Part shown: in pieces, positions 47,261-53,953 of the stretch
Layout: each line of letters begins with the position of its first letter
How positions within the stretch are numbered: the stretch's first letter is position 1
DNA from: Bdellovibrionia bacterium
GTDB taxonomy: Bacteria > Bdellovibrionota > Bdellovibrionia > Bdellovibrionales > JAGQZY01
Reading direction: 5' to 3'
Assembly (NCBI GenBank): GCA_030427805.1
Contig: JAUICP010000006.1
Location: 138,364-202,363 of the forward strand
Length of the DNA stretch: 64,000 nucleotides
Made by a program: the position numbers and the translations under genes
Notes under the pieces: generated by a model
The model's database searches: none
Told to the model about the DNA's origin: nothing
What the model saw: only the letters and a program-made list of their open reading frames with translations

Positions 47261-48403
47261 ATGCGTAATTTATTTGTCATTTTGATCACTTTTCTTCTTA
47301 GCTTAAGTCCCATGGCCAACGAGGCCACGAACTTAGAGTCCAATGCGCAGAAGCAACAAAGCGAAACGAATTTGATTACCGACGATCAGGACGACGCCAA
47401 TGAAGAAACCTCGTCCATATCTCCTGAGGATCAAAAGTTTGAACAGAGAGATCTGAGTCAGTACGGAGTGAACTCCATTCCTGAAGGACTCATTCAATTG
47501 GGCAAAGAATCCAATTACTTTTCTCCTTACGTTTTCATCGTTGATAAAACGGATCGCGTACTCAGTATTTGGGAAGAAACTCCTATGGGAGTGAAAAGAG
47601 TTGCCGCCTACACCGCTGATATCGGCAAGAACCAATCAGATAAAAAAATTCTTGGTGATAAGGCGACCCCTGAAGGTATTTATTTTATGCTCGAAAAGTA
47701 CGAAGCAGAAGTACTCGACTTTTCACGATATGGAAGCCGTGCTTTTACTCTCGACTACCCCAATTTCTATGACAAGTTAGAACGTAAGACCGGAAGTGGA
47801 ATTTGGCTTCACGCCGTACCCGATACGGTTTCTCTGCGCCGAGGCTCTAGGGGCTGTGTGGTCGTTAGGGATGAGATTATTAAAAATCTTCACCCCTATT
47901 ATAAACCTGGCTTTACTCCCGTTATCATTCAAGAGAACGTCAAAATGCGAAGTCGGAAAGAGGCGAAGAACCTAAGGAAAGAACTGAATCAACTGGTCGA
48001 AAACTGGCGCCAAAGTTGGGTTCAAGGTGATATCGATACTTACATCAAATATTATCACTCCCAGTTTAAATCTCTAGGCATGAACAAAGAGATGTGGGAA
48101 AAGTATAAAAGGGACCTCAGTGAACGCTATCAGAAAATCGGAGTTCAGCTCTCCCGCCCGGTTATTTACGAACACAAAAATGAAGTCATTGTCCGATTCG
48201 TGCAAAAGTACTCATCTAATGAATATTCCGACTTTGGGCAAAAAACTCTTTATCTCAAGAAAGAAAACGGGTCCTATAAAATTCTCGGTGAGCAATGGAA
48301 GAAAGATGGAAGTCGCCTTGCTCTCGACGAATTAAGAGGACGTTCGATGGTGAGTATGTGCCAAAACCTCATCCAATGCGGCAAAGATGTGATACCAAAC
48401 TAG
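47261..48403 (+). CDS. L,D-transpeptidase (YkuD) with a C-terminal NTF2/SnoaL-like domain
   Basis: Signal peptide. The catalytic block GIWLHAVPDTVSLRRGSRGCVVV fits H-x(n)-S-x-GC. The C-terminal ~130 aa resemble the DUF4440/SnoaL fold (WRQSWVQGDIDTYIKYY). Confidence 0.85.
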   Translation: MRNLFVILITFLLSLSPMANEATNLESNAQKQQSETNLITDDQDDANEETSSISPEDQKFEQRDLSQYGVNSIPEGLIQLGKESNYFSPYVFIVDKTDRVLSIWEETPMGVKRVAAYTADIGKNQSDKKILGDKATPEGIYFMLEKYEAEVLDFSRYGSRAFTLDYPNFYDKLERKTGSGIWLHAVPDTVSLRRGSRGCVVVRDEIIKNLHPYYKPGFTPVIIQENVKMRSRKEAKNLRKELNQLVENWRQSWVQGDIDTYIKYYHSQFKSLGMNKEMWEKYKRDLSERYQKIGVQLSRPVIYEHKNEVIVRFVQKYSSNEYSDFGQKTLYLKKENGSYKILGEQWKKDGSRLALDELRGRSMVSMCQNLIQCGKDVIPN

Positions 48404-48446: not shown

Positions 48447-48469
48447 ACAGCGACCATTTTTGTCGCTGT
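48447..48469. other. 8-bp stem-loop ACAGCGAC-cattttt-GTCGCTGT between ldt and the giant gene
   Basis: Perfect stem with no U-tract on the + strand and TTTT on the - strand. Its role is unclear: an atypical terminator or a leader structure. Confidence 0.3.
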
Positions 48470-48598
48470 GAAAAATTGATCTCCACAAAAAAAATAGTTT
48501 CAAAAGAAAACGTTTCAAACTGAGACGCAAACTCCCTCAAGTATCGAATATTTCAGTGATTCCTTCACAATAGAAGTAAGCGAAAAAGGGAGTGATCA

Positions 48599-51500
48599 AT
48601 GAATTCCAATAATAGGTGGCACAATGATTTGCCAGCGCTAATGATCATCATAATTGTAATCGTGGGAATGATTCCTATGATTTCATACGGAAGTCCGAAG
48701 ACCAGCCAAACAAAAATTCAGCGAACTGAGCTCAAAAAAGTTAGTAAAAAACAGGCCAAGAGGTCTTCGAAGAAATCGAAACGCGCGCAAAGATACAGCA
48801 AACTTAAGAGACAAAAATACCTCAAAAAACTTCGCATGAAGAAAAGAGCGCAAAAAAGAAAAATCGCTTCAAAGAACTCTAAGGCTCGAAACAGTCAACT
48901 GCGAAAATCTAAACTGAGTAGGGCAAAAATTAAAGCCCTCAAGCAGAAAAAGGCCCGTAAAAGTGCTTACATAAGCATAAAGAAGAAACACCTAAAAATG
49001 CGAAGAGATGCTCGTAATGTAATGAAACTCTCTAAATTGAAAAGAAAATACGCCAAAGGTAAGAAAAGCTTCAACGTTACATTGGGTATGTGGAAGTTTG
49101 CTAACCAACGAACCAAGCTTCGCTATGCCATGGCCTTACGTGATAGCCTTATAAAAATTCAAAAAGAAATGCTTAAGAAAAATCCGAGGGATTTTGCTCT
49201 CAACGAACCCGAGAATCCTTTTGTGGCTCTCCTCAATGGACTCTTTCAAGAAGCAATGGCCGCCAATGTCGGTGATCGCTGCCTCTATGCCGGGTGGCCT
49301 TCTACCTATCAAGAGCATCCTGGATTCGGACGCCCTTATTGTGTTCCGAGTAATGGAAGTGGCCAGGGTATTGGCCCTAATGAAGAGCCTTTTCGAACTT
49401 GGAATGGCGAACTCAAATGTTCTGCCGGACAAATCCTATGTAATCCCGCAATATTCGGAATGGGTAGCCACGGAAATGGATACTGCACGAACAGAGGTCG
49501 CAGAGCCTTTCGCAACTGCCAAGATCAGTACTACTCTGACCGCGGCTTTCCGGCCCGGGCAATTGTTGAACAGCTCATAGCTAACCCACAAACGGGCTAT
49601 CAAAATATTTCAGAAATGCAGACATTTATCGATGACTACTGTGGAAACAGTCAGGCCTATCAATGCCGTTCAATTAGAGATCGACTGGCTCGCCTCGAAC
49701 TCGATTTTCCGCAAGAGGCCCGTGCGATTGTTGCAGCAGCCCCTGCGCCTGAACCAGCCAACGCTGAAGGTGAATGTGCTGCAGGCGATACAGAATGTGA
49801 AGAAAGAGCAGCTGCTGCGGCGGCGGCAGCAGCCGTTGAAACAGCTGAAGTCCCTAACCAATACGCCCATTTGGCCACCCACGATGGCCGATGTGAAACG
49901 GGCCTGCCCGATGATGTCACCGATGTCGATTGCGATACTGTATGTGAACCCCCATCAGAAGAAATTTTCAATCTCGATCGCGATTGCCGAGTTGATTACA
50001 CGTGGAATGCAGAACTCGGTCAAGCCGTTGAGATTGGCGCTGCAGCTCCAGAAGTCGAAACTGCAACTGTCGGTCCTGCGCCAGAAACCGGAGTTGAAGA
50101 AAACGGCTGGGCCGTTCACGATGGAAATTGCCAACGCTGGGAAGGCGGACAAACTGATGTCGACTGCGATGCCATCTGTGAACCGGCAACCCGAGAAATT
50201 TTTGATCTCGATCGCGACTGCTTCGAATATACTTGGGAAGAAGTCGATCCTGCCAATAGAACACCAGCCGTTGCTGAAACTGAAACCGAAGAAGTAATGA
50301 CTCCAGCGCCAGAACCTGAAGCTGAAGTCGCCGCTGGTGACACACGTTGGTCTGTTCATAATGGAGTCTGTGATTACAATACACCCGAAGGTGTTGTCGA
50401 TGTCGACTGTGACACGATCTGTGAACCGGCAACTCGAGAAATTTTTGATCTCGATCGCGACTGCCTCGTCGACTATGTTTGGAATGATGAACTCGGCCGC
50501 GCGGTAGAATACGGCACTGAGCCTCCCGCAGCAGAAACCGGAGAAGTTGTTGCTGCTGGAACCAATGCAGAAGTCGCAGCCCCCGAACCGGAAGCGGATG
50601 AAACTGAAACGTGTACAGACAATGATTGTGCTGTTGCATCTGGAATCGCTGCCGCACCAGAAACCGAAGAGCTTGTCGTTGCCAATGGAGACGCAGAAAC
50701 AGTTGTCCCCGAAGGAGAAGTGAATCCGTCAGCAATTGTTTTGCCCGGCCAAGGGGCTAACCCTATTGTTTACCCAGACTATGTTGAAACTCCGACTACA
50801 GTTCACATGTGTCATGGTAGAAATCAGGTCGTTAACTCTAGTGGAGAAGCAACAAACTTCTTCCCACAAGGGGTCGGAAGCTGCGTTGCCTGCTCTCTTG
50901 ACCTACAAATTAATGAACTCAACCCTGATCAACTCAATACTAAGAGAGTTTCAACGAGGTACTTGGATCTAGTTTCTGTAATAGCTAGAACGTGCTACTC
51001 CGGTGACCGAACTCGAAGCGCTTTGACTGCCAATGAAATCACCCAACAACTCGGTTACTGTGGTGAAGAGACCTATAATTTTAGTCAAATGACTGCCCAA
51101 GAGATTCTCGCCCATCAAATGCATATCCGCTCTATTTTAGGTGGCGGTGGAGATGACTCCTCTTTTCAGGCCCTTTATGGAATGAGTAAAGAGCAATTCC
51201 AGCAAAGTATGTGTGAAGGTCAGAATGGTTTGAAATCGAGCCGAGGTGAGGTCTTAAGAGCGATTAATGGACTCGCACCAGGCCAAGGTGTTCCTGGTGA
51301 CAATGGCAGGGTCTTCCCTGAAGGCAGTTTGACAGGGCAACTCAACGCCTGCCTCGAAGAAGGTAATGAGAGAATGAATTTAAGACCTCAGTACTGCTCA
51401 CTTAATGCGGACGCCCCAGAAAATAATGACCCAACAGATTTTTATAATCGTGAGATGAGAGAGCACATCGACAGTGCTTTCCTTCCCGCCCTCATTCAAA

Positions 51501-52099
51501 CAGGTGAATTCGGCGGATGTACGACAATTACTGATCCCATCCCAATGCCTTCCGATGAAGAAAGGGAAGAGCTAGATCGAACGAGGCAAATGATTTTCAC
51601 CCATGGAGGCTTTAATCACGATGGTGAGCCTACACTGTTTTACTACGACATGGGCGGATCAGAAGGTGAAGGTCTTTATGGACGCACTGAAAGTTATCGC
51701 TCTCGCCGTGAGTTTTATCTCATGTCAGGTCAAAACTTAGACTCGTCCATCCAAAGAGAGCAAGCGCGACTTGCGGAGATTACTGCTGAACTCGAGGAAT
51801 TTAGAGCAGCACTTCCAGAAGAGCCGAGCGAACAACAGAGGGCCGACCTTGCCCAGCTCGAGTCCGATGCTGAGCGAGCACAAGCCGTCGTTGATCAACT
51901 GATAGCAAGCCGCCAATCCCACCTGGAAGAAGCTTCAGGATGGAGAGACCCAGGTCAATTTGTACGCTCTGGAGATAGCTTTATGATTTCTTGTAATCGT
52001 CCCACGCGAATTCATGCGACCATTCCGACCCACGGAGACCAAACCGATCCAGATGCCAGTCTCGTGGGAACTATCGATGGTACTCCCAACGAAAATTAG
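48599..52099 (+). CDS. 1166-aa secreted/anchored protein: polybasic region, Cys-rich core, 3 tandem four-Cys repeats, C-terminal coiled coil; function unknown
   Basis: GGGAG SD. Hydrophobic N-terminus LPALMIIIIVIVGMIPMISYG. About 130 aa are K/R-rich. Many Cys follow. There are three copies of H[DN]G.C...VDCD..CEP...EIF.LDRDC. A coiled coil occurs near the C-terminus (REQARLAEITAELEEFRAAL). Confidence 0.85.
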   Translation: MNSNNRWHNDLPALMIIIIVIVGMIPMISYGSPKTSQTKIQRTELKKVSKKQAKRSSKKSKRAQRYSKLKRQKYLKKLRMKKRAQKRKIASKNSKARNSQLRKSKLSRAKIKALKQKKARKSAYISIKKKHLKMRRDARNVMKLSKLKRKYAKGKKSFNVTLGMWKFANQRTKLRYAMALRDSLIKIQKEMLKKNPRDFALNEPENPFVALLNGLFQEAMAANVGDRCLYAGWPSTYQEHPGFGRPYCVPSNGSGQGIGPNEEPFRTWNGELKCSAGQILCNPAIFGMGSHGNGYCTNRGRRAFRNCQDQYYSDRGFPARAIVEQLIANPQTGYQNISEMQTFIDDYCGNSQAYQCRSIRDRLARLELDFPQEARAIVAAAPAPEPANAEGECAAGDTECEERAAAAAAAAAVETAEVPNQYAHLATHDGRCETGLPDDVTDVDCDTVCEPPSEEIFNLDRDCRVDYTWNAELGQAVEIGAAAPEVETATVGPAPETGVEENGWAVHDGNCQRWEGGQTDVDCDAICEPATREIFDLDRDCFEYTWEEVDPANRTPAVAETETEEVMTPAPEPEAEVAAGDTRWSVHNGVCDYNTPEGVVDVDCDTICEPATREIFDLDRDCLVDYVWNDELGRAVEYGTEPPAAETGEVVAAGTNAEVAAPEPEADETETCTDNDCAVASGIAAAPETEELVVANGDAETVVPEGEVNPSAIVLPGQGANPIVYPDYVETPTTVHMCHGRNQVVNSSGEATNFFPQGVGSCVACSLDLQINELNPDQLNTKRVSTRYLDLVSVIARTCYSGDRTRSALTANEITQQLGYCGEETYNFSQMTAQEILAHQMHIRSILGGGGDDSSFQALYGMSKEQFQQSMCEGQNGLKSSRGEVLRAINGLAPGQGVPGDNGRVFPEGSLTGQLNACLEEGNERMNLRPQYCSLNADAPENNDPTDFYNREMREHIDSAFLPALIQTGEFGGCTTITDPIPMPSDEEREELDRTRQMIFTHGGFNHDGEPTLFYYDMGGSEGEGLYGRTESYRSRREFYLMSGQNLDSSIQREQARLAEITAELEEFRAALPEEPSEQQRADLAQLESDAERAQAVVDQLIASRQSHLEEASGWRDPGQFVRSGDSFMISCNRPTRIHATIPTHGDQTDPDASLVGTIDGTPNEN
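49880..50515 (+). repeat. three tandem in-frame repeats (periods 237 and 240 nt) inside the giant gene
   Basis: Repeat starts fall at the His codons at 49880, 50117 and 50357. The cores of repeats 2 and 3 are nearly identical at the nucleotide level (gatgtcgactg.ga....atctgtgaaccggcaac.cgagaaatttttgatctcgatcgcgactgc). Confidence 0.9.
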
Positions 52100-52123: not shown

Positions 52124-52155
52124 AAAAAAAAGCGCCATCGAAGTGGCGCTTTTTT
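52124..52155. terminator. bidirectional intrinsic terminator after the giant gene (+) and the 108-aa gene (-)
   Basis: AAAAAAA-AGCGCCA-tcgaag-TGGCGCT-TTTTT. Confidence 0.8.
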
Positions 52156-52176: not shown

Positions 52177-52503
52177 TTAGAAAGTATTTCCACCCTGATT
52201 GGGGTCATTTCCGCCCATGCCTTGGCCAAAAGGATTTGATGTTTCCATCCCCTGATTCATTTGCGATTGATCCTCAACAAATGGCGATGAGTGATCTTGG
52301 GAATTACCCTCGTGGGCTTCTACAGAAGAAGCATCTTTAATATCTTCCTCAAGATTGAAACGCTCTACTTTTGCAGATTCATCGGGCTGGCCGTCTCGGT
52401 GTTGCTTAAGCTCTTCTTCAGTAAGAGTCCCTCGCTTGAGATTGATATTCACCATGCGGTTATCAAACTTTAATTTTTGCATTTGATCGTGAATGTAAGC
52501 CAC
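52177..52503 (-). CDS. hypothetical protein with a Gln/Gly/Asn-rich C-terminus
   Basis: ORF downstream of the rhomboid gene. I prefer the GTG at 52503 (AGGAGG 4 nt upstream) to the TTG at 52521. No motif recognised. Confidence 0.55.
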   Translation of the reverse strand: MAYIHDQMQKLKFDNRMVNINLKRGTLTEEELKQHRDGQPDESAKVERFNLEEDIKDASSVEAHEGNSQDHSSPFVEDQSQMNQGMETSNPFGQGMGGNDPNQGGNTF

Positions 52504-52511
52504 AATGCCTC

Positions 52512-53303
52512 CTAATTCCAATATCGGGGACCGTCCCCGCCGTCATCATCGTCTTCTACCCTGACTTTGTTGTCGTTGTTTACCACGAGTTTCAGCTTGC
52601 GTCCACCGCGCTTAGGCTTTTTCGTCTTCTTTTGCCCTTTATAGCGGGTCCAAAAGATCAGAAAGAGAAAGCCTGTGACCAAGCCCCCGAGGTGAGCCAG
52701 ATTCGCCGTCGAAGAGGCCCCTGACACCCCAGTATTGAGGCTTGAAACAATTTCAATCATCCCAATGATCATCACGAAATACTTCGCTTTAATCGGGATC
52801 GTCATAAAAAGATAGATCACTCTTTCGCCAAAGATAATCCCAAACGCCAAGAGGAGACCGAAAATAGCCCCCGAGGCACCGATCACTGGAGCCGTCCACA
52901 GAATGGGCTGGCTGGCTTTAGCGAGCATGGCGATCACGACAATAAGGCTATAGAGTAAAGCCGCTCCTACCCCGCACACGAAGTAATAGAGCGTAAAAAA
53001 GCGAGTTCCCCACTTCTGCTCCAATTCGCCACCAAACCACCAAAGGACCAACATATTCATGAGTATGTGCATGGGGCTCGTGGCGTGGAGAAACATATAA
53101 GTAAATGGCGTCCATATATTGAAGCTCTCAATAAGGCGAGCGGGACTAAACGAAAAGAAAAGAGTAAAGGGCTGGCCGCTAAAAAACTGCCCCTCGATGA
53201 TGACCTGAACGACAAACCATATGAAGAGATTTGCGATGAGCAGTTTCTTCACCATGGGGGTCATGGGAGCCATCATTTGTAAGTTCATGCCACCGCGCTG
53301 CAT
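52512..53303 (-). CDS. rhomboid-family intramembrane serine protease
   Basis: Six TM helices. The catalytic Ser is in GASGAIFGLL and the His in ANLAHLGGLVTG. A basic C-terminal tail is present (KGQKKTKKPKRGGRKLK). Confidence 0.88.
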   Translation of the reverse strand: MQRGGMNLQMMAPMTPMVKKLLIANLFIWFVVQVIIEGQFFSGQPFTLFFSFSPARLIESFNIWTPFTYMFLHATSPMHILMNMLVLWWFGGELEQKWGTRFFTLYYFVCGVGAALLYSLIVVIAMLAKASQPILWTAPVIGASGAIFGLLLAFGIIFGERVIYLFMTIPIKAKYFVMIIGMIEIVSSLNTGVSGASSTANLAHLGGLVTGFLFLIFWTRYKGQKKTKKPKRGGRKLKLVVNNDNKVRVEDDDDGGDGPRYWN

Positions 53304-53311
53304 TTCCTCTC

Positions 53312-53953
53312 CTAGAGTTTGAGCTTCTCGAAATAAGGTATCAAACGGCCATAGCTTTGCTCAAGTGTTTCGATAACCACTTTTGTATCGGCGATTAAGG
53401 GAAAAAAGTTCGTATCCCCTCGCCAACGGGGAATTAAATGAAAGTGGAGGTGGTCTGGAATTCCAGCTCCCGCCATGGACCCTTGGTTCAGGCCCACGTT
53501 CAAGGCCTCACATTCATAGGCCTCTTTAACGATAGCCGAAGCTCTTCTCAGCAGCTTTGTGACGCGAAGGTAAATATCTTCGTCCAAGCGGTCCATTTCG
53601 CCATTATGTTGAACCGGCAACACCAGGAGGTGGCCGTTGTTATAGGGATATTTGTTGAGAACCACCATGGCCTTGTCATCCTTGTACAAGCAAAGGCTCT
53701 CAAAACTCACTCCCCGCTTTGCTGCCTTGCAAAAAACACAGCCCTTGGGTTTGACGAGCTTGCGCACGTATTTGAGGCGCTCCGGTTTTTCAATAAGCTC
53801 CCGCTCCCCGGGCCAAATATCGTGGACAGAGGCACTCCGAAGCTTTCGAGCTTCGCTCTTTGAAGTAATAAGAACTTTCTTAGCCTTCTTCTTAGCCTTT
53901 TTTTGGGGCTTCTTCTTAGAAGCTTTTGTTTTCTTTTTTGAACTCTTGGCCAC
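53312..53953 (-). CDS. HIT-family nucleotide hydrolase/phosphorylase (Ap4A-phosphorylase-like) with a poly-Lys N-terminus
   Basis: Histidine triad HLHFHLIPRW and the upstream LNKYPYNNGHLLVLP. The N-terminus is MAKSSKKKTKASKKKPQKKAKKKAKK. GTG start 8 nt after AAGGAG. Confidence 0.85.
   Translation of the reverse strand: MAKSSKKKTKASKKKPQKKAKKKAKKVLITSKSEARKLRSASVHDIWPGERELIEKPERLKYVRKLVKPKGCVFCKAAKRGVSFESLCLYKDDKAMVVLNKYPYNNGHLLVLPVQHNGEMDRLDEDIYLRVTKLLRRASAIVKEAYECEALNVGLNQGSMAGAGIPDHLHFHLIPRWRGDTNFFPLIADTKVVIETLEQSYGRLIPYFEKLKL

What the first reader, a model, noticed from the sequence alone, without database searches (positions are those of the whole stretch)
48599..52099. Giant exported protein with an extracytoplasmic polybasic domain and a Cys-rich core, no recognisable family
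After a hydrophobic N-terminus, residues ~38-165 (nt ~48710-49090) are almost pure Lys/Arg/Ser/Ala (…KKVSKKQAKRSSKKSKRAQRYSKLKRQKYLKKLRMKKRAQKRKIASKNSKARNSQLRKSKLSRAKIKALKQKKARK…). Next comes a Cys-rich globular region (…CLYAGWP…CVPSNG…CSAGQILCNPAIFG…YCTNRG…NCQDQYY…). Ala/Glu/Pro/Thr acidic linkers follow, then three four-Cys repeats, more Cys-containing sequence, and a C-terminal coiled coil.

I recognise no catalytic motif or known adhesin repeat. A histone-like basic block on an exported protein is unusual. It suggests binding to a polyanion such as LPS, DNA, polyphosphate or teichoic-like polymers. The gene has its own SD and a strong terminator, and it follows an L,D-transpeptidase.
Basis: partly seen in the sequence, partly recalled or inferred. 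Interest (0 to 1): 0.55.

Follow-up and report, generated by a model that had tools for sequence, protein, structure and literature searches.

The report
Exported giant protein with polybasic arm
An uncultured relative of predatory Bdellovibrio bacteria encodes a real, strongly conserved 1166-residue protein that most likely sits outside the cytoplasm; it carries an extremely positively charged arm next to a cysteine-rich domain belonging to a small undescribed family, and its function is still only inferred.

Summary
ORF 48599-52099 (+) encodes 1166 aa:
- one N-terminal hydrophobic segment;
- a Lys/Arg block (aa 46-157, net +52, one acidic residue, no Pro);
- a Cys-rich domain, "DomA" (aa 158-372);
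- a 363-aa acidic region (net -73) with three 4-Cys repeats;
- a second Cys-containing domain, "DomB";
- a coiled-coil hairpin, then a terminator.

All regions are under purifying selection (dN/dS 0.067 overall; DomA has 50 synonymous and 0 non-synonymous changes).

Pfam, NCBIfam, PDB sequence or profile searches and Foldseek (PDB, BFVD) match no characterised family. An exhaustive search did find about 25 distant, unnamed clusters that share DomA (8 conserved Cys). Nearly all have a canonical Sec signal peptide directly before DomA and varied C-terminal domains, including anthrax-lethal-factor-like proteases.

The window protein has a single hydrophobic segment, so its polybasic block must lie on the same extracytoplasmic side as DomA. 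The block recurs in four further diverged relatives, three of them directly after canonical signal peptides.

The most likely role is an exported polyanion-binding arm on an envelope or prey-directed protein. That role is inferred, not shown. The source is a Bdellovibrionia MAG. Interest is moderate.

The parts
48470..48598 (+). Conserved upstream leader or promoter region. It includes the direct repeat GTTTCAAA-N7-GTTTCAAA (about 48497-48520) and the Shine-Dalgarno sequence AAGGGAG (48586-48592).
   Evidence: It is virtually identical to L003, although dS in the gene is 0.47. It is about 85% identical to L001, whose protein is only 46% identical. There is no Rfam match and no covariation with three sequences.
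48599..52099 (+). Coding sequence of the 1166-aa protein, stop codon included.
   Evidence: dN/dS is 0.067 against the L003 orthologue. Orthologues are P0003 and P0004 (94% identical) and P0002 (46% identical), in conserved synteny.
48599..48691 (+). N-terminal signal peptide or signal anchor (aa 1-31). The h-region is LPALMIIIIVIVGMIPMI and a possible SPase I site is SYG|S.
   Evidence: It is the only hydrophobic segment. SYGS is conserved in P0002. There are no synonymous or non-synonymous changes in these 31 codons against L003.
48692..49069 (+). Polybasic arm (aa 32-157). The dense block is aa 46-157, with net charge +52.
   Evidence: The composition is conserved but the sequence is not in P0002. 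Analogous blocks lie between the signal peptide and DomA in P0005 (L009), P0006 and P0007. dN/dS is 0.076.
49070..49714 (+). DomA (aa 158-372): an N-terminal helical hairpin plus a Cys-rich core. It has 8 conserved Cys (228, 248, 274, 281, 296, 307, 348, 356) and the motifs C-x-Y-A-G-W-P-S and L-C-N-P-x-I-F-G-x-G.
   Evidence: The alignment A2 holds 25 sequences. The AlphaFold2 model has pLDDT 84.3. Foldseek finds no hit in PDB or BFVD. It is 100% identical in amino acids to L003 despite 50 synonymous changes.
49715..50803 (+). Acidic low-complexity centre (aa 373-735, net -73, 16 Cys), rich in Ala, Glu, Val, Asp, Thr and Pro.
   Evidence: It cannot be aligned with P0002, which instead has C-x4-C pairs in an acidic linker. 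dN/dS is 0.10.
49859..50518 (+). Three acidic 4-Cys repeats of about 45 aa (aa 421-480, 500-556, 580-640). Consensus: W-x-V-H-D-G-x-C ... D-V-D-C-D-x-I-C-E-P ... E-I-F-D-L-D-R-D-C-x-x-x-Y-x-W.
   Evidence: Protein alignment. The DNA repeat cores are 49922-49991, 50156-50225 and 50399-50468.
50804..51553 (+). DomB core (aa 736-985), mostly helical, with 9 Cys. A tenth family-conserved Cys lies in the tail at aa 1132.
   Evidence: It is shared with P0002, P0005, P0006 and P0008. AlphaFold2 gives pLDDT 70-85 for its helices. There is no fold or sequence match.
51689..51946 (+). Coiled-coil helical hairpin (aa 1031-1116).
   Evidence: AlphaFold2 helices 307-347 and 354-392 of model mc04e24b778e5 have pLDDT 80-92. 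It is present only in the window lineage and P0002.
52126..52155 (.). Bidirectional intrinsic terminator hairpin between convergent genes.
   Evidence: 13-bp stem, with T-runs on both strands.

Best explanation
The gene encodes an extracytoplasmic multi-domain protein of an uncultured Bdellovibrionia bacterium. It is either secreted or anchored by its N-terminus.

**Proposed mechanism.**
1. The single N-terminal hydrophobic segment sends the chain through Sec. It is then either cut after G31 or kept as an anchor.
2. Everything after it lies outside the cytoplasm.
3. The 112-residue Lys/Arg block acts as a flexible electrostatic arm. It has no acidic residues and no Pro, so it may become helical once its charge is neutralised. 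It sticks to a polyanionic envelope polymer: LPS or lipid A phosphates, anionic phospholipid head groups, peptidoglycan or extracellular DNA.
4. DomA is the disulfide-stabilised module that defines the family. It probably serves for binding or targeting, because relatives attach different C-terminal domains to it.
5. The long acidic region is an extended spacer.
6. DomB plus the coiled-coil hairpin form the lineage-specific distal head, whose activity is unknown.

Because the lineage is a predatory one, the preferred target is the prey cell envelope.

**Shown:** the anatomy, the conservation, the family and the signal peptides of relatives.
**Inferred:** the topology of this protein (a strong inference), polyanion binding, the prey target and the disulfides.
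For: 1. There is one hydrophobic segment only.
2. DomA relatives have canonical Sec signal peptides (K/R at positions 2-3, an h-region of 10-14 residues, a small-x-small site) immediately before the DomA module, as listed. DomA is therefore extracytoplasmic in the family. The basic block lies between the segment and DomA, so it is on the same side.
3. A basic block follows canonical signal peptides in three other diverged members: P0006 (+33 between signal peptide and DomA), P0007 (+36) and P0005. P0002 has +53. The other relatives have -13 to +5.
4. There are 34 Cys, an even number in every module, and 2.9% Cys against 0.65% background. Eight Cys are conserved across DomA and 10 across DomB.
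5. The composition of the block is conserved while its sequence is not, with dN/dS 0.076. This fits a charge-based function.
6. Relatives join DomA to ATLF Zn-protease domains through low-complexity linkers. This is the layout of a targeting module plus a variable functional domain.
7. The source lineage is Bdellovibrionia.
8. In B. bacteriovorus a Sec signal peptide alone delivers a reporter to the medium (PMC12622784).
9. B. bacteriovorus lipid A is reported to be neutral (Schwudke 2003, cited in PMC10062353). That would spare the producer from its own polycation. This point is an extrapolation to this MAG.
Against: - The positive-inside rule, and the reported effect of positive charge early in the mature region on export in Gram-negative bacteria (Kajava 2000, known here only by its title in the reference list of PMC2638155), argue against easy export of a +52 block. 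A topology predictor might place it in the cytoplasm.
- The h-region is 18 residues long, so an uncleaved anchor is as likely as a cleaved signal peptide.
- No binding partner is shown.
- Amphipathicity of the block is not consistently above shuffled controls (z = 0.1, 2.5, 2.9, -0.6, 0.9), so membrane insertion is not supported.
- Neither DomA nor DomB has a fold match that would indicate a binding function.
- No conserved gene neighbourhood points to predation.
- The organism is uncultured and its lifestyle and lipid A are unknown.
Confidence: 0.45

Rival explanations
1. It is an envelope-spanning tether, with a layout like TolA or TonB. The N-terminal segment stays as an inner-membrane anchor. 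The basic block lies on the anionic outer face of the inner membrane or on peptidoglycan. The acidic region crosses the periplasm as an extended rod. DomB and the coiled coil contact the outer membrane or the cell wall of the producer itself. The role is structural or in cell-wall organisation, not in predation.
For: - The h-region is long (18 aa), more like an anchor than a signal peptide.
- The order anchor, charged extended regions, C-terminal globular head resembles TolA and TonB (own knowledge).
- The neighbours are envelope genes: a YkuD L,D-transpeptidase, FliL, a rhomboid and M16 peptidases.
- dN/dS is uniformly low, as expected of a housekeeping envelope component.
Against: - Relatives P0005, P0006 and P0007 have short, canonical, apparently cleavable signal peptides before the basic block.
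- There is no TonB_C or TolA match, no conserved His or SHLS-type TM motif, and no ExbBD or TolQR genes adjacent.
- The acidic spacer is not conserved in the family; in P0006 it is 16 aa.
- Synteny with the L,D-transpeptidase is limited to close relatives.
Confidence: 0.2
2. The basic block is a removable N-terminal pro-region or an intramolecular partner. It neutralises or chaperones the very acidic remainder of the protein (overall net charge -46) during or after export. Alternatively it retains the protein until it is processed, and it has no external ligand.
For: - In the window lineage the opposite charges are large and of similar size: +52 against -71 for the linker. In P0002 they are +48 against -46.
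- The block sits where secreted enzymes carry propeptides (own knowledge).
Against: - Charge matching is not a family-wide feature. P0006 has +25 against a 16-aa linker of -4. P0007 and P0006 are net positive overall.
- No conserved processing site lies between the block and DomA.
Confidence: 0.1
3. The topology is inverted. The hydrophobic segment is an N-out/C-in anchor, so the basic block and everything after it are cytoplasmic. The block would bind DNA, RNA, polyphosphate or the inner leaflet, and the Cys clusters would bind metals.
For: - This follows the positive-inside rule. The N-terminal flank has net charge 0, the next 14 residues +2, and then +52.
- Weak compositional matches to the rRNA-binding protein bL20 (E about 0.4).
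- Other proteins of this genome that are presumably cytoplasmic carry polybasic tails, for example the HIT protein at 53312-53953.
Against: - DomA is 100% conserved and is homologous to a domain that follows canonical signal peptides in about 20 relatives.
- Three relatives combine a positively charged n-region, an AxA-type site and a basic block.
- Isolated C-x4-C pairs inside disordered acidic linkers, and 34 Cys with even counts per module, fit disulfides better than metal sites.
- No CxxC...CxxC zinc-ribbon pattern is present.
Confidence: 0.1
4. It is a prey-nucleic-acid or extracellular-DNA binding protein. The exported basic block works like a histone H1 tail or protamine and condenses or captures DNA, either in the bdelloplast or in biofilm matrix.
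For: About 48% of the block is Lys or Arg with no acidic residues, like nucleic-acid-binding tails. There are weak compositional hits to ribosomal bL20.
Against: There are no S/TPKK or Pro/Ala repeats typical of H1-like tails, and the block has 0 Pro. No nuclease or DNA-binding domain is detected anywhere in the protein or in relatives. Composition alone cannot distinguish DNA from LPS or other polyanions.
Confidence: 0.1

Closest known systems
Unnamed DomA family: about 25 clusters at 50% identity, all metagenomic or MAG hypothetical proteins (P0005-P0028)
   Same: They share the homologous N-terminal module: a helical hairpin plus a core with 8 conserved Cys, C-x-Y-A-G-[WY]-x-S and L-C-N-P-x-x-[FY]-G-x-G. 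An N-terminal export signal comes before it and a low-complexity linker after it. P0002, P0005, P0006 and P0008 also share DomB.
   Different: Most members are 340-720 aa, have no basic block (net -13 to +5 before DomA) and carry other C-terminal domains. These include ATLF in P0015, P0017 and P0025, and HExxH by eye in P0021 and P0026. The window protein adds a +52 block, a 363-aa acidic region with three 4-Cys repeats, and a coiled-coil tail.
Surface adhesins with basic polyanion-binding segments: mycobacterial HBHA and Neisseria NHBA (own knowledge)
   Same: They are exported or surface proteins in which a low-complexity Lys- or Arg-rich segment binds polyanions (heparan sulfate, DNA) through charge.
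   Different: There is no sequence or domain homology. Their basic segments are short and, in HBHA, made of Pro/Ala/Lys repeats at the C-terminus. Here the block is 112 aa, free of Pro, N-terminal and directly after the export signal.
TonB and TolA envelope-spanning proteins
   Same: They have an N-terminal membrane segment followed by long charged, extended regions and a C-terminal globular part.
   Different: There is no TonB_C or TolA domain, no conserved TM His motif and no ExbBD or TolQR partner nearby. The only TonB hit is a linker-composition match in relative P0012 (16 bits against a 315-bit cut-off).
Polycationic outer-membrane-permeabilising peptides and polycation-tagged endolysins ('artilysins') (own knowledge)
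   Same: A run of Lys and Arg is fused to a cargo protein. Such runs displace divalent cations from LPS and promote passage across or binding to Gram-negative outer membranes.
   Different: Those tags are about 9-30 residues and often amphipathic. This block is 112 residues and not consistently amphipathic, and no lytic cargo domain is detectable in this protein.
SAG1386/EF1546 family surface-associated proteins (NCBIfam NF042931)
   Same: A TM or signal segment is followed by a Lys-rich stretch. This is the only family-library hit below E = 0.001 (aa 14-94).
   Different: The score is 19.8 bits against a cut-off of 80. It is a compositional match only, to a Gram-positive family of 158-aa proteins.
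Bacterial histone H1-like proteins: Chlamydia Hc1/Hc2 and Pseudomonas AlgP (own knowledge)
   Same: They have an extreme Lys-rich composition.
   Different: They are cytoplasmic nucleoid proteins without export signals or Cys-rich domains, and typically have Pro/Ala/Lys repeats. There is no homology.

Membership tests
DomA family (unnamed, defined here) | Eight conserved Cys with the C-x-Y-A-G-[WY]-x-S and L-C-N-P-x-x-[FY]-G-x-G motifs | tested here: met
   Alignment A2. jackhmmer gives a domain E-value of 5e-116 for the query and 1e-34 to 1e-74 for 24 relatives. phmmer E-values range from 1.8e-69 to 7.5e-4.
DomA family (unnamed, defined here) | An N-terminal export signal before the module | tested here: met
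   There is a hydrophobic N-terminal peak in every full-length member. The window protein has one, but with a longer h-region, so cleavage is undecided.
Sec-type cleavable signal peptide | Positive n-region, h-region of 7-15 residues, small residues at -3 and -1 | tested here: inconclusive
   The n-region has net charge about 0 (R6, D10). The h-region is 18 aa. SYG|S fits the -3/-1 rule and is conserved in P0002. No dedicated predictor was available.
TonB / TolA | C-terminal TonB_C or TolA domain, and a Pro-rich or Ala/Lys/Glu helical spacer | tested here: not met
   There is no Pfam or NCBIfam hit. The spacer has a different composition.
TonB / TolA | Adjacent or genomic ExbBD or TolQR energising partners | tested here: not met
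   Neighbouring genes are FliL, YkuD, a rhomboid, HIT and M16 peptidases. Only this 64-kb window was examined.
ATLF (PF07737) metalloproteases, found in DomA relatives | ATLF domain with an HExxH zinc site | tested here: not met
   There is no PF07737 hit in the window protein at E <= 1 and no HExxH in the sequence. The domain is present in P0015, P0017 and P0025.
SAG1386/EF1546 surface-associated protein (NF042931) | Score above the curated cut-off of 80 bits | tested here: not met
   19.8 bits, E = 6.7e-4, covering aa 14-94 only.
Kringle domain | PF00051 match and the 6-Cys kringle pattern | tested here: not met
   The A2 profile gives only E = 0.15-0.4 against prothrombin kringle chains. 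No Pfam Kringle hit was found in any of the 25 members at E <= 1. Foldseek against PDB finds nothing.
Histone H1-like / HBHA-type Lys-rich proteins | Pro/Ala/Lys or S/TPKK repeat units | tested here: not met
   The block has 0 Pro in 111 aa. No tandem repeat was detected. There is no family hit.
Disulfide-bonded extracytoplasmic domain (generic) | Cys residues paired as disulfides | not testable with these tools
   Cys counts are even in every module: 8 in DomA, 16 in the centre and 10 in DomB plus tail.

The most novel reading that the evidence does not exclude
A subclade of a Bdellovibrionota-specific secreted protein family may have evolved a natural 'polycation tag'. This is a 50-110-residue Lys/Arg block placed directly behind the signal peptide. 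It would be exported despite the charge rules known for Sec substrates. Outside the cell it would dock the attached domains (DomA, DomB or others) onto, or help them cross, the anionic outer membrane of prey. The predator's own low-charge LPS would spare it. This would be a new delivery principle for predatory effectors and a natural counterpart of engineered polycation-tagged lysins.
Probability: 0.15. Interest if true: 0.75.

Novelty: new variant of a known kind. Interest (0 to 1): 0.45.

Why it matters
**Protein export.** If the topology inference holds, this family shows that bacteria can export a segment of 50-110 residues with net charge +25 to +52 directly after a signal peptide. Work on E. 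coli suggests that should be strongly disfavoured. That makes the family a useful natural test case for the limits of Sec translocation.

**Predatory bacteria.** The finding defines an undescribed cysteine-rich N-terminal module, DomA, with a confident predicted fold and no match in the PDB. Members join it to different C-terminal domains, including lethal-factor-like proteases. That marks a candidate family of secreted predation or envelope factors. A natural polycationic envelope-binding arm could also guide the design of agents that target the outer membrane.

**Limits.** The function is inferred from composition and architecture only, the family is rare, and the organisms are uncultured.

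Tried and rejected
**Family and fold searches that found nothing**
- Pfam, NCBIfam and PDB sequence searches of the whole protein gave only noise. The hits were evasin (E = 0.79), cholecystokinin receptor and bL20 (E about 0.2-0.4), and SAG1386 well below its cut-off.
- Foldseek of the DomA model against PDB and BFVD, and of the DomB model against PDB, found nothing at E <= 0.001. DomB picked up only generic coiled-coil hits.
- DomA and DomB profiles against PDB sequences gave only a weak prothrombin kringle lead (E = 0.15). I rejected it because no member hits Pfam Kringle.

**Searches for more relatives or annotation**
- The DomA profile in the search for homologous proteins returned a single protein. 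The metagenome scan returned one extra locus.
- The 'GDSH' motif in the C-terminal half of P0007 looked like an SGNH hydrolase. Pfam, NCBIfam and PDB give no support, so I make no claim.
- No source gives a name for any relative.
- Literature searches found no description of the family.

**Ideas about the protein that were not supported**
- The basic block as an amphipathic membrane-inserting helix: its hydrophobic moment is not consistently above shuffled controls.
- Basic and acidic charge matching as a family feature: rejected because of P0006 and P0007.
- A functional link to the neighbouring L,D-transpeptidase: it is not conserved outside close syntenic relatives.
- A conserved neighbourhood for DomA genes: none was found.

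**Other negative results**
- Rfam and RNAalifold on the conserved leader gave no family and no covariation.
- Tandem Repeats Finder found nothing. The three repeats are too diverged and spaced, and they were recovered with the repeat finder.
- There is no DomA paralogue elsewhere in the window.

Full report
**1. What is there**

The window holds an ORF at 48599-52099 on the + strand (ATG start, 1166 aa). A Shine-Dalgarno sequence (AAGGGAG) lies 6 nt upstream. A 13-bp hairpin with T-runs on both strands follows at 52126-52155, between convergent genes.

| Module | Residues | Features |
|---|---|---|
| N-terminus | 1-11 | Polar, net charge 0 |
| Hydrophobic segment | 12-31 | The only one in the protein |
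| Transition | 32-45 | Net +2 |
| Polybasic block | 46-157 | K38, R15, S14, A11; one acidic residue, no Pro, one Gly; net +52 |
| DomA | 158-372 | 8 Cys |
| Acidic centre | 373-735 | Rich in Ala, Glu, Val, Asp, Thr, Pro; net -73; 16 Cys |
| DomB core | 736-985 | 9 Cys |
| C-terminal part | 986-1166 | Includes a coiled-coil hairpin |

- No other open frame of at least 150 aa in the window exceeds +24 over 112 residues.
- Cys makes up 2.9% of the protein, against 0.65% pooled over the other ORFs.
- The three 4-Cys repeats are real. The protein alignment has 23 invariant columns. In DNA there are three 70-nt cores spaced 234 and 243 nt apart.

**2. It is a real gene under selection**

The source is an uncultured Bdellovibrionia bacterium. 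A MAG contig, JAUHWN010000009.1, carries a 92-94% identical orthologue (locus L003).

I compared the window gene with L003 by the Nei-Gojobori method.

| Region | dN/dS |
|---|---|
| Whole gene | 0.067 (dS 0.47) |
| Polybasic arm (aa 32-157) | 0.076 |
| DomA | 0 (50 synonymous, 0 non-synonymous differences) |
| Acidic centre | 0.10 |
| DomB | 0.05 |
| C-terminal part | 0.12 |

A second orthologue, P0002 (1040 aa, 46% identical), sits in the same gene order: FliL, YkuD L,D-transpeptidase, this gene, a small ORF, a rhomboid and HIT. Between the window protein and P0002:
- DomA is almost unchanged.
- DomB is largely conserved by eye; over aa 725-1166 the two are 53% identical.
- The basic block keeps its composition but not its sequence.
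- The acidic centre cannot be aligned. P0002 carries C-x4-C pairs instead of the 4-Cys repeats.

**3. Relatives**

The word-indexed search found only the two orthologue clusters. The exhaustive phmmer search against 1.84 billion representatives found 25 proteins at E <= 0.001. Apart from the orthologue P0002, the matches listed fall in DomA, about aa 160-400.

An alignment of 25 DomA segments (A2) shows the pattern C-x-Y-A-G-[WY]-x-S ... C ... C ... L-C-N-P-x-x-[FY]-G-x-G ... C ... C ... C ... C. Eight Cys are conserved. DomB is shared only with P0002, P0005, P0006 and P0008, and has 10 conserved Cys.

The other members carry different C-terminal halves behind Pro/Thr/Ser/Ala linkers.
- Three have a significant ATLF (anthrax lethal factor-like) domain.
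- Two more show HEHxH by eye.
- The rest match nothing.

No source names any of them. The loci have no common neighbours. A metagenome scan added one locus. The family is small, rare and undescribed, and four literature searches found nothing on it.

**4. No characterised family or fold**

- Pfam, NCBIfam and PDB sequence searches of the whole protein give only noise.
- DomA folds with good confidence (pLDDT 84.3, pTM 0.67). It has an N-terminal helical hairpin, a small beta core and C-terminal helices.
- Foldseek finds nothing for DomA in PDB (best E = 2.4) or BFVD.
- The DomB model is weaker (pLDDT 60.5). It has confident helices and a confident coiled-coil hairpin at aa 1031-1116. Its PDB hits are generic coiled coils.
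- Profile searches against PDB sequences give at best E = 0.007-0.4.
- The weak kringle lead is not backed by Pfam in any member.

**5. Topology, the key question**

*For an extracytoplasmic location.*
- Essentially every full-length DomA relative starts with a canonical Sec signal peptide. Examples are MRFLMIIFVGLLSSQAFA|T, MKRLIILIFGLVASVSWG|K and MKAVVGLCCALMASAMAFA|E. DomA follows after a short helical region. DomA is therefore an extracytoplasmic domain, which fits its eight conserved Cys.
- The window protein has one hydrophobic segment, and its DomA is under complete amino-acid conservation. The basic block between the two must lie on the same side as DomA.
- Three other diverged members place a basic block directly behind canonical signal peptides:
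  - P0006: ...SSTLFA|E..., +33 between signal peptide and DomA.
  - P0007: ...ISFS|KAK..., +36.
  - P0005: its gene call is cut by an assembly gap, but its upstream reading frame encodes MRITKKAVMLFVVTIAVIAFGGQQDVYA|KAKRSKVAKLKKSK....
- All other relatives have -13 to +5 in the same place. The block is therefore an insertion that defines a subclade.

*Against.*
- The positive-inside rule argues the other way.
- So does the reported effect of positive charge in the early mature region on export in Gram-negative bacteria (Kajava et al. 2000, known here only by title through PMC2638155).
- The window protein's n-region has net charge about 0 and its h-region is 18 residues long. I cannot tell whether it is cleaved at SYG|S or retained as an anchor.

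I put the cytoplasmic reading at about 0.1.

**6. What the basic block looks like**

About 48% of the block is Lys or Arg and about 20% is hydrophobic. It has no acidic residues, and its almost complete lack of Pro and Gly is shared with P0002 and P0007. That composition allows a helix once the charge is neutralised. A helical amphipathic pattern is not consistently above shuffled controls (z = 0.1 for the window protein; 2.5, 2.9, -0.6 and 0.9 for relatives). The conserved property is therefore charge density, not a membrane-inserting face.

Matching of the basic block to the acidic centre holds in the window lineage (+52 against -71) and in P0002 (+48 against -46). It does not hold in P0006 or P0007. 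Intramolecular neutralisation is therefore not the family-wide reason for the block.

**7. Most likely mechanism**

The protein is an exported protein, either secreted or N-terminally anchored. Its polybasic arm binds a polyanionic envelope polymer by charge. DomA is the family's disulfide-rich binding or targeting module. The acidic region is a spacer. DomB and the coiled coil form a lineage-specific head of unknown activity.

I favour the prey envelope (LPS) as the target, for three reasons:
- The lineage is Bdellovibrionia.
- Relatives attach toxin-like proteases to DomA.
- B. bacteriovorus is reported to have a neutral lipid A, which would protect the producer (Schwudke 2003, cited in PMC10062353).

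All three are inferences, and the last is an extrapolation to this MAG. Sec signal peptides alone suffice for release of a reporter into the medium in B. bacteriovorus (PMC12622784).

The rivals are:

| Rival | Confidence |
|---|---|
| TolA/TonB-like envelope tether | 0.2 |
| Pro-region or intramolecular partner | 0.1 |
| Inverted, cytoplasmic topology | 0.1 |
| DNA capture | 0.1 |

**8. Comparison with what is known**

Functionally, the protein most resembles surface proteins with basic polyanion-binding segments (HBHA, NHBA) and polycation-tagged lysins. In layout it resembles TonB and TolA. It is not a member of any of these families, because each defining domain or motif that I tested was absent (see the membership table). 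It is a member of the unnamed DomA family.

**9. Verdict**

The feature is a new variant within the broad kind 'secreted modular envelope or effector proteins', and it belongs to a previously undescribed domain family. The conserved export of an extreme polycation is the surprising element. Interest is moderate (0.45), because the function rests on inference and the organisms are uncultured.

Noticed in passing
window 48470-48700: The roughly 130 nt upstream of the gene and its first ~100 coding nt are virtually identical to L003, although dS in the rest of the gene is 0.47; there are 0 synonymous changes in the first 31 codons. The same stretch is about 85% identical to distant L001. It contains the direct repeat GTTTCAAA-N7-GTTTCAAA and a hairpin TGGCACAATGATTTGCCA inside codons 6-12. 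The hairpin resembles a sigma-54 promoter element, but its spacing is one base too long. There is no Rfam hit and no covariation with three sequences. It is probably a conserved promoter/operator or an mRNA element.
   Followed up: partly
window 53312-53953 (-) and 52512-53303 (-): The HIT-family protein starts with a polybasic tail, MAKSSKKKTKASKKKPQKKAKKKAKK, the second highest charge density in the window at +24 per 112 aa. The rhomboid ends in a basic tail, KGQKKTKKPKRGGRKLKL. Lys-rich tails may be a habit of this lineage.
   Followed up: no
window 52177-52521 (-); L001 6060-6371: A small acidic, low-complexity ORF of 114 aa lies convergent with the giant gene and overlaps the start of the rhomboid gene by 10 nt. 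A gene of similar size is called at the same position in L001 and L002. It has no Pfam match.
   Followed up: no
window 49632-50297 (+), 49968-50735 (-), 49955-50359 (-), 49660-49971 (-): Several long alternative-frame and antisense ORFs (103-255 aa) lie inside the acidic, GC-richer centre of the gene. They are most likely by-products of the biased, repetitive composition and not genes. The annotated frame is the one under purifying selection (dN/dS 0.10).
   Followed up: partly
L009 7574-8001: The gene for P0005 is interrupted by a run of N, an assembly gap with duplicated flanks, so the public gene call starts about 140 codons too late. The true N-terminus, a signal peptide plus a polybasic block, lies upstream of the gap. 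P0005 and P0007 are paralogues in one genome (GCA_964523195.1).
   Followed up: yes
L009 1839-3395; L012 389-4971 and 5305-6210: Two unrelated DomA loci have FHA / Yop-YscD_cpl domain genes a few kb away, and L012 also has a T2SSF gene. This may be coincidence or a weak link to a pilus or secretion apparatus. It is not seen at the other loci.
   Followed up: no
window 47261-48403 (+): The upstream L,D-transpeptidase combines a YkuD catalytic domain with a C-terminal Cds6_C NTF2-like domain, and has its own signal peptide and an acidic N-terminal linker. A hairpin at 48447-48469 separates it from the giant gene. Its T-run is on the minus strand only, so it is a doubtful terminator for the + strand transcript.
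   Followed up: no
tool behaviour: The word-indexed homology search missed all 23 distant DomA relatives that the exhaustive phmmer search found. Negative results from that tool for low-complexity queries should not be read as absence.
   Followed up: yes
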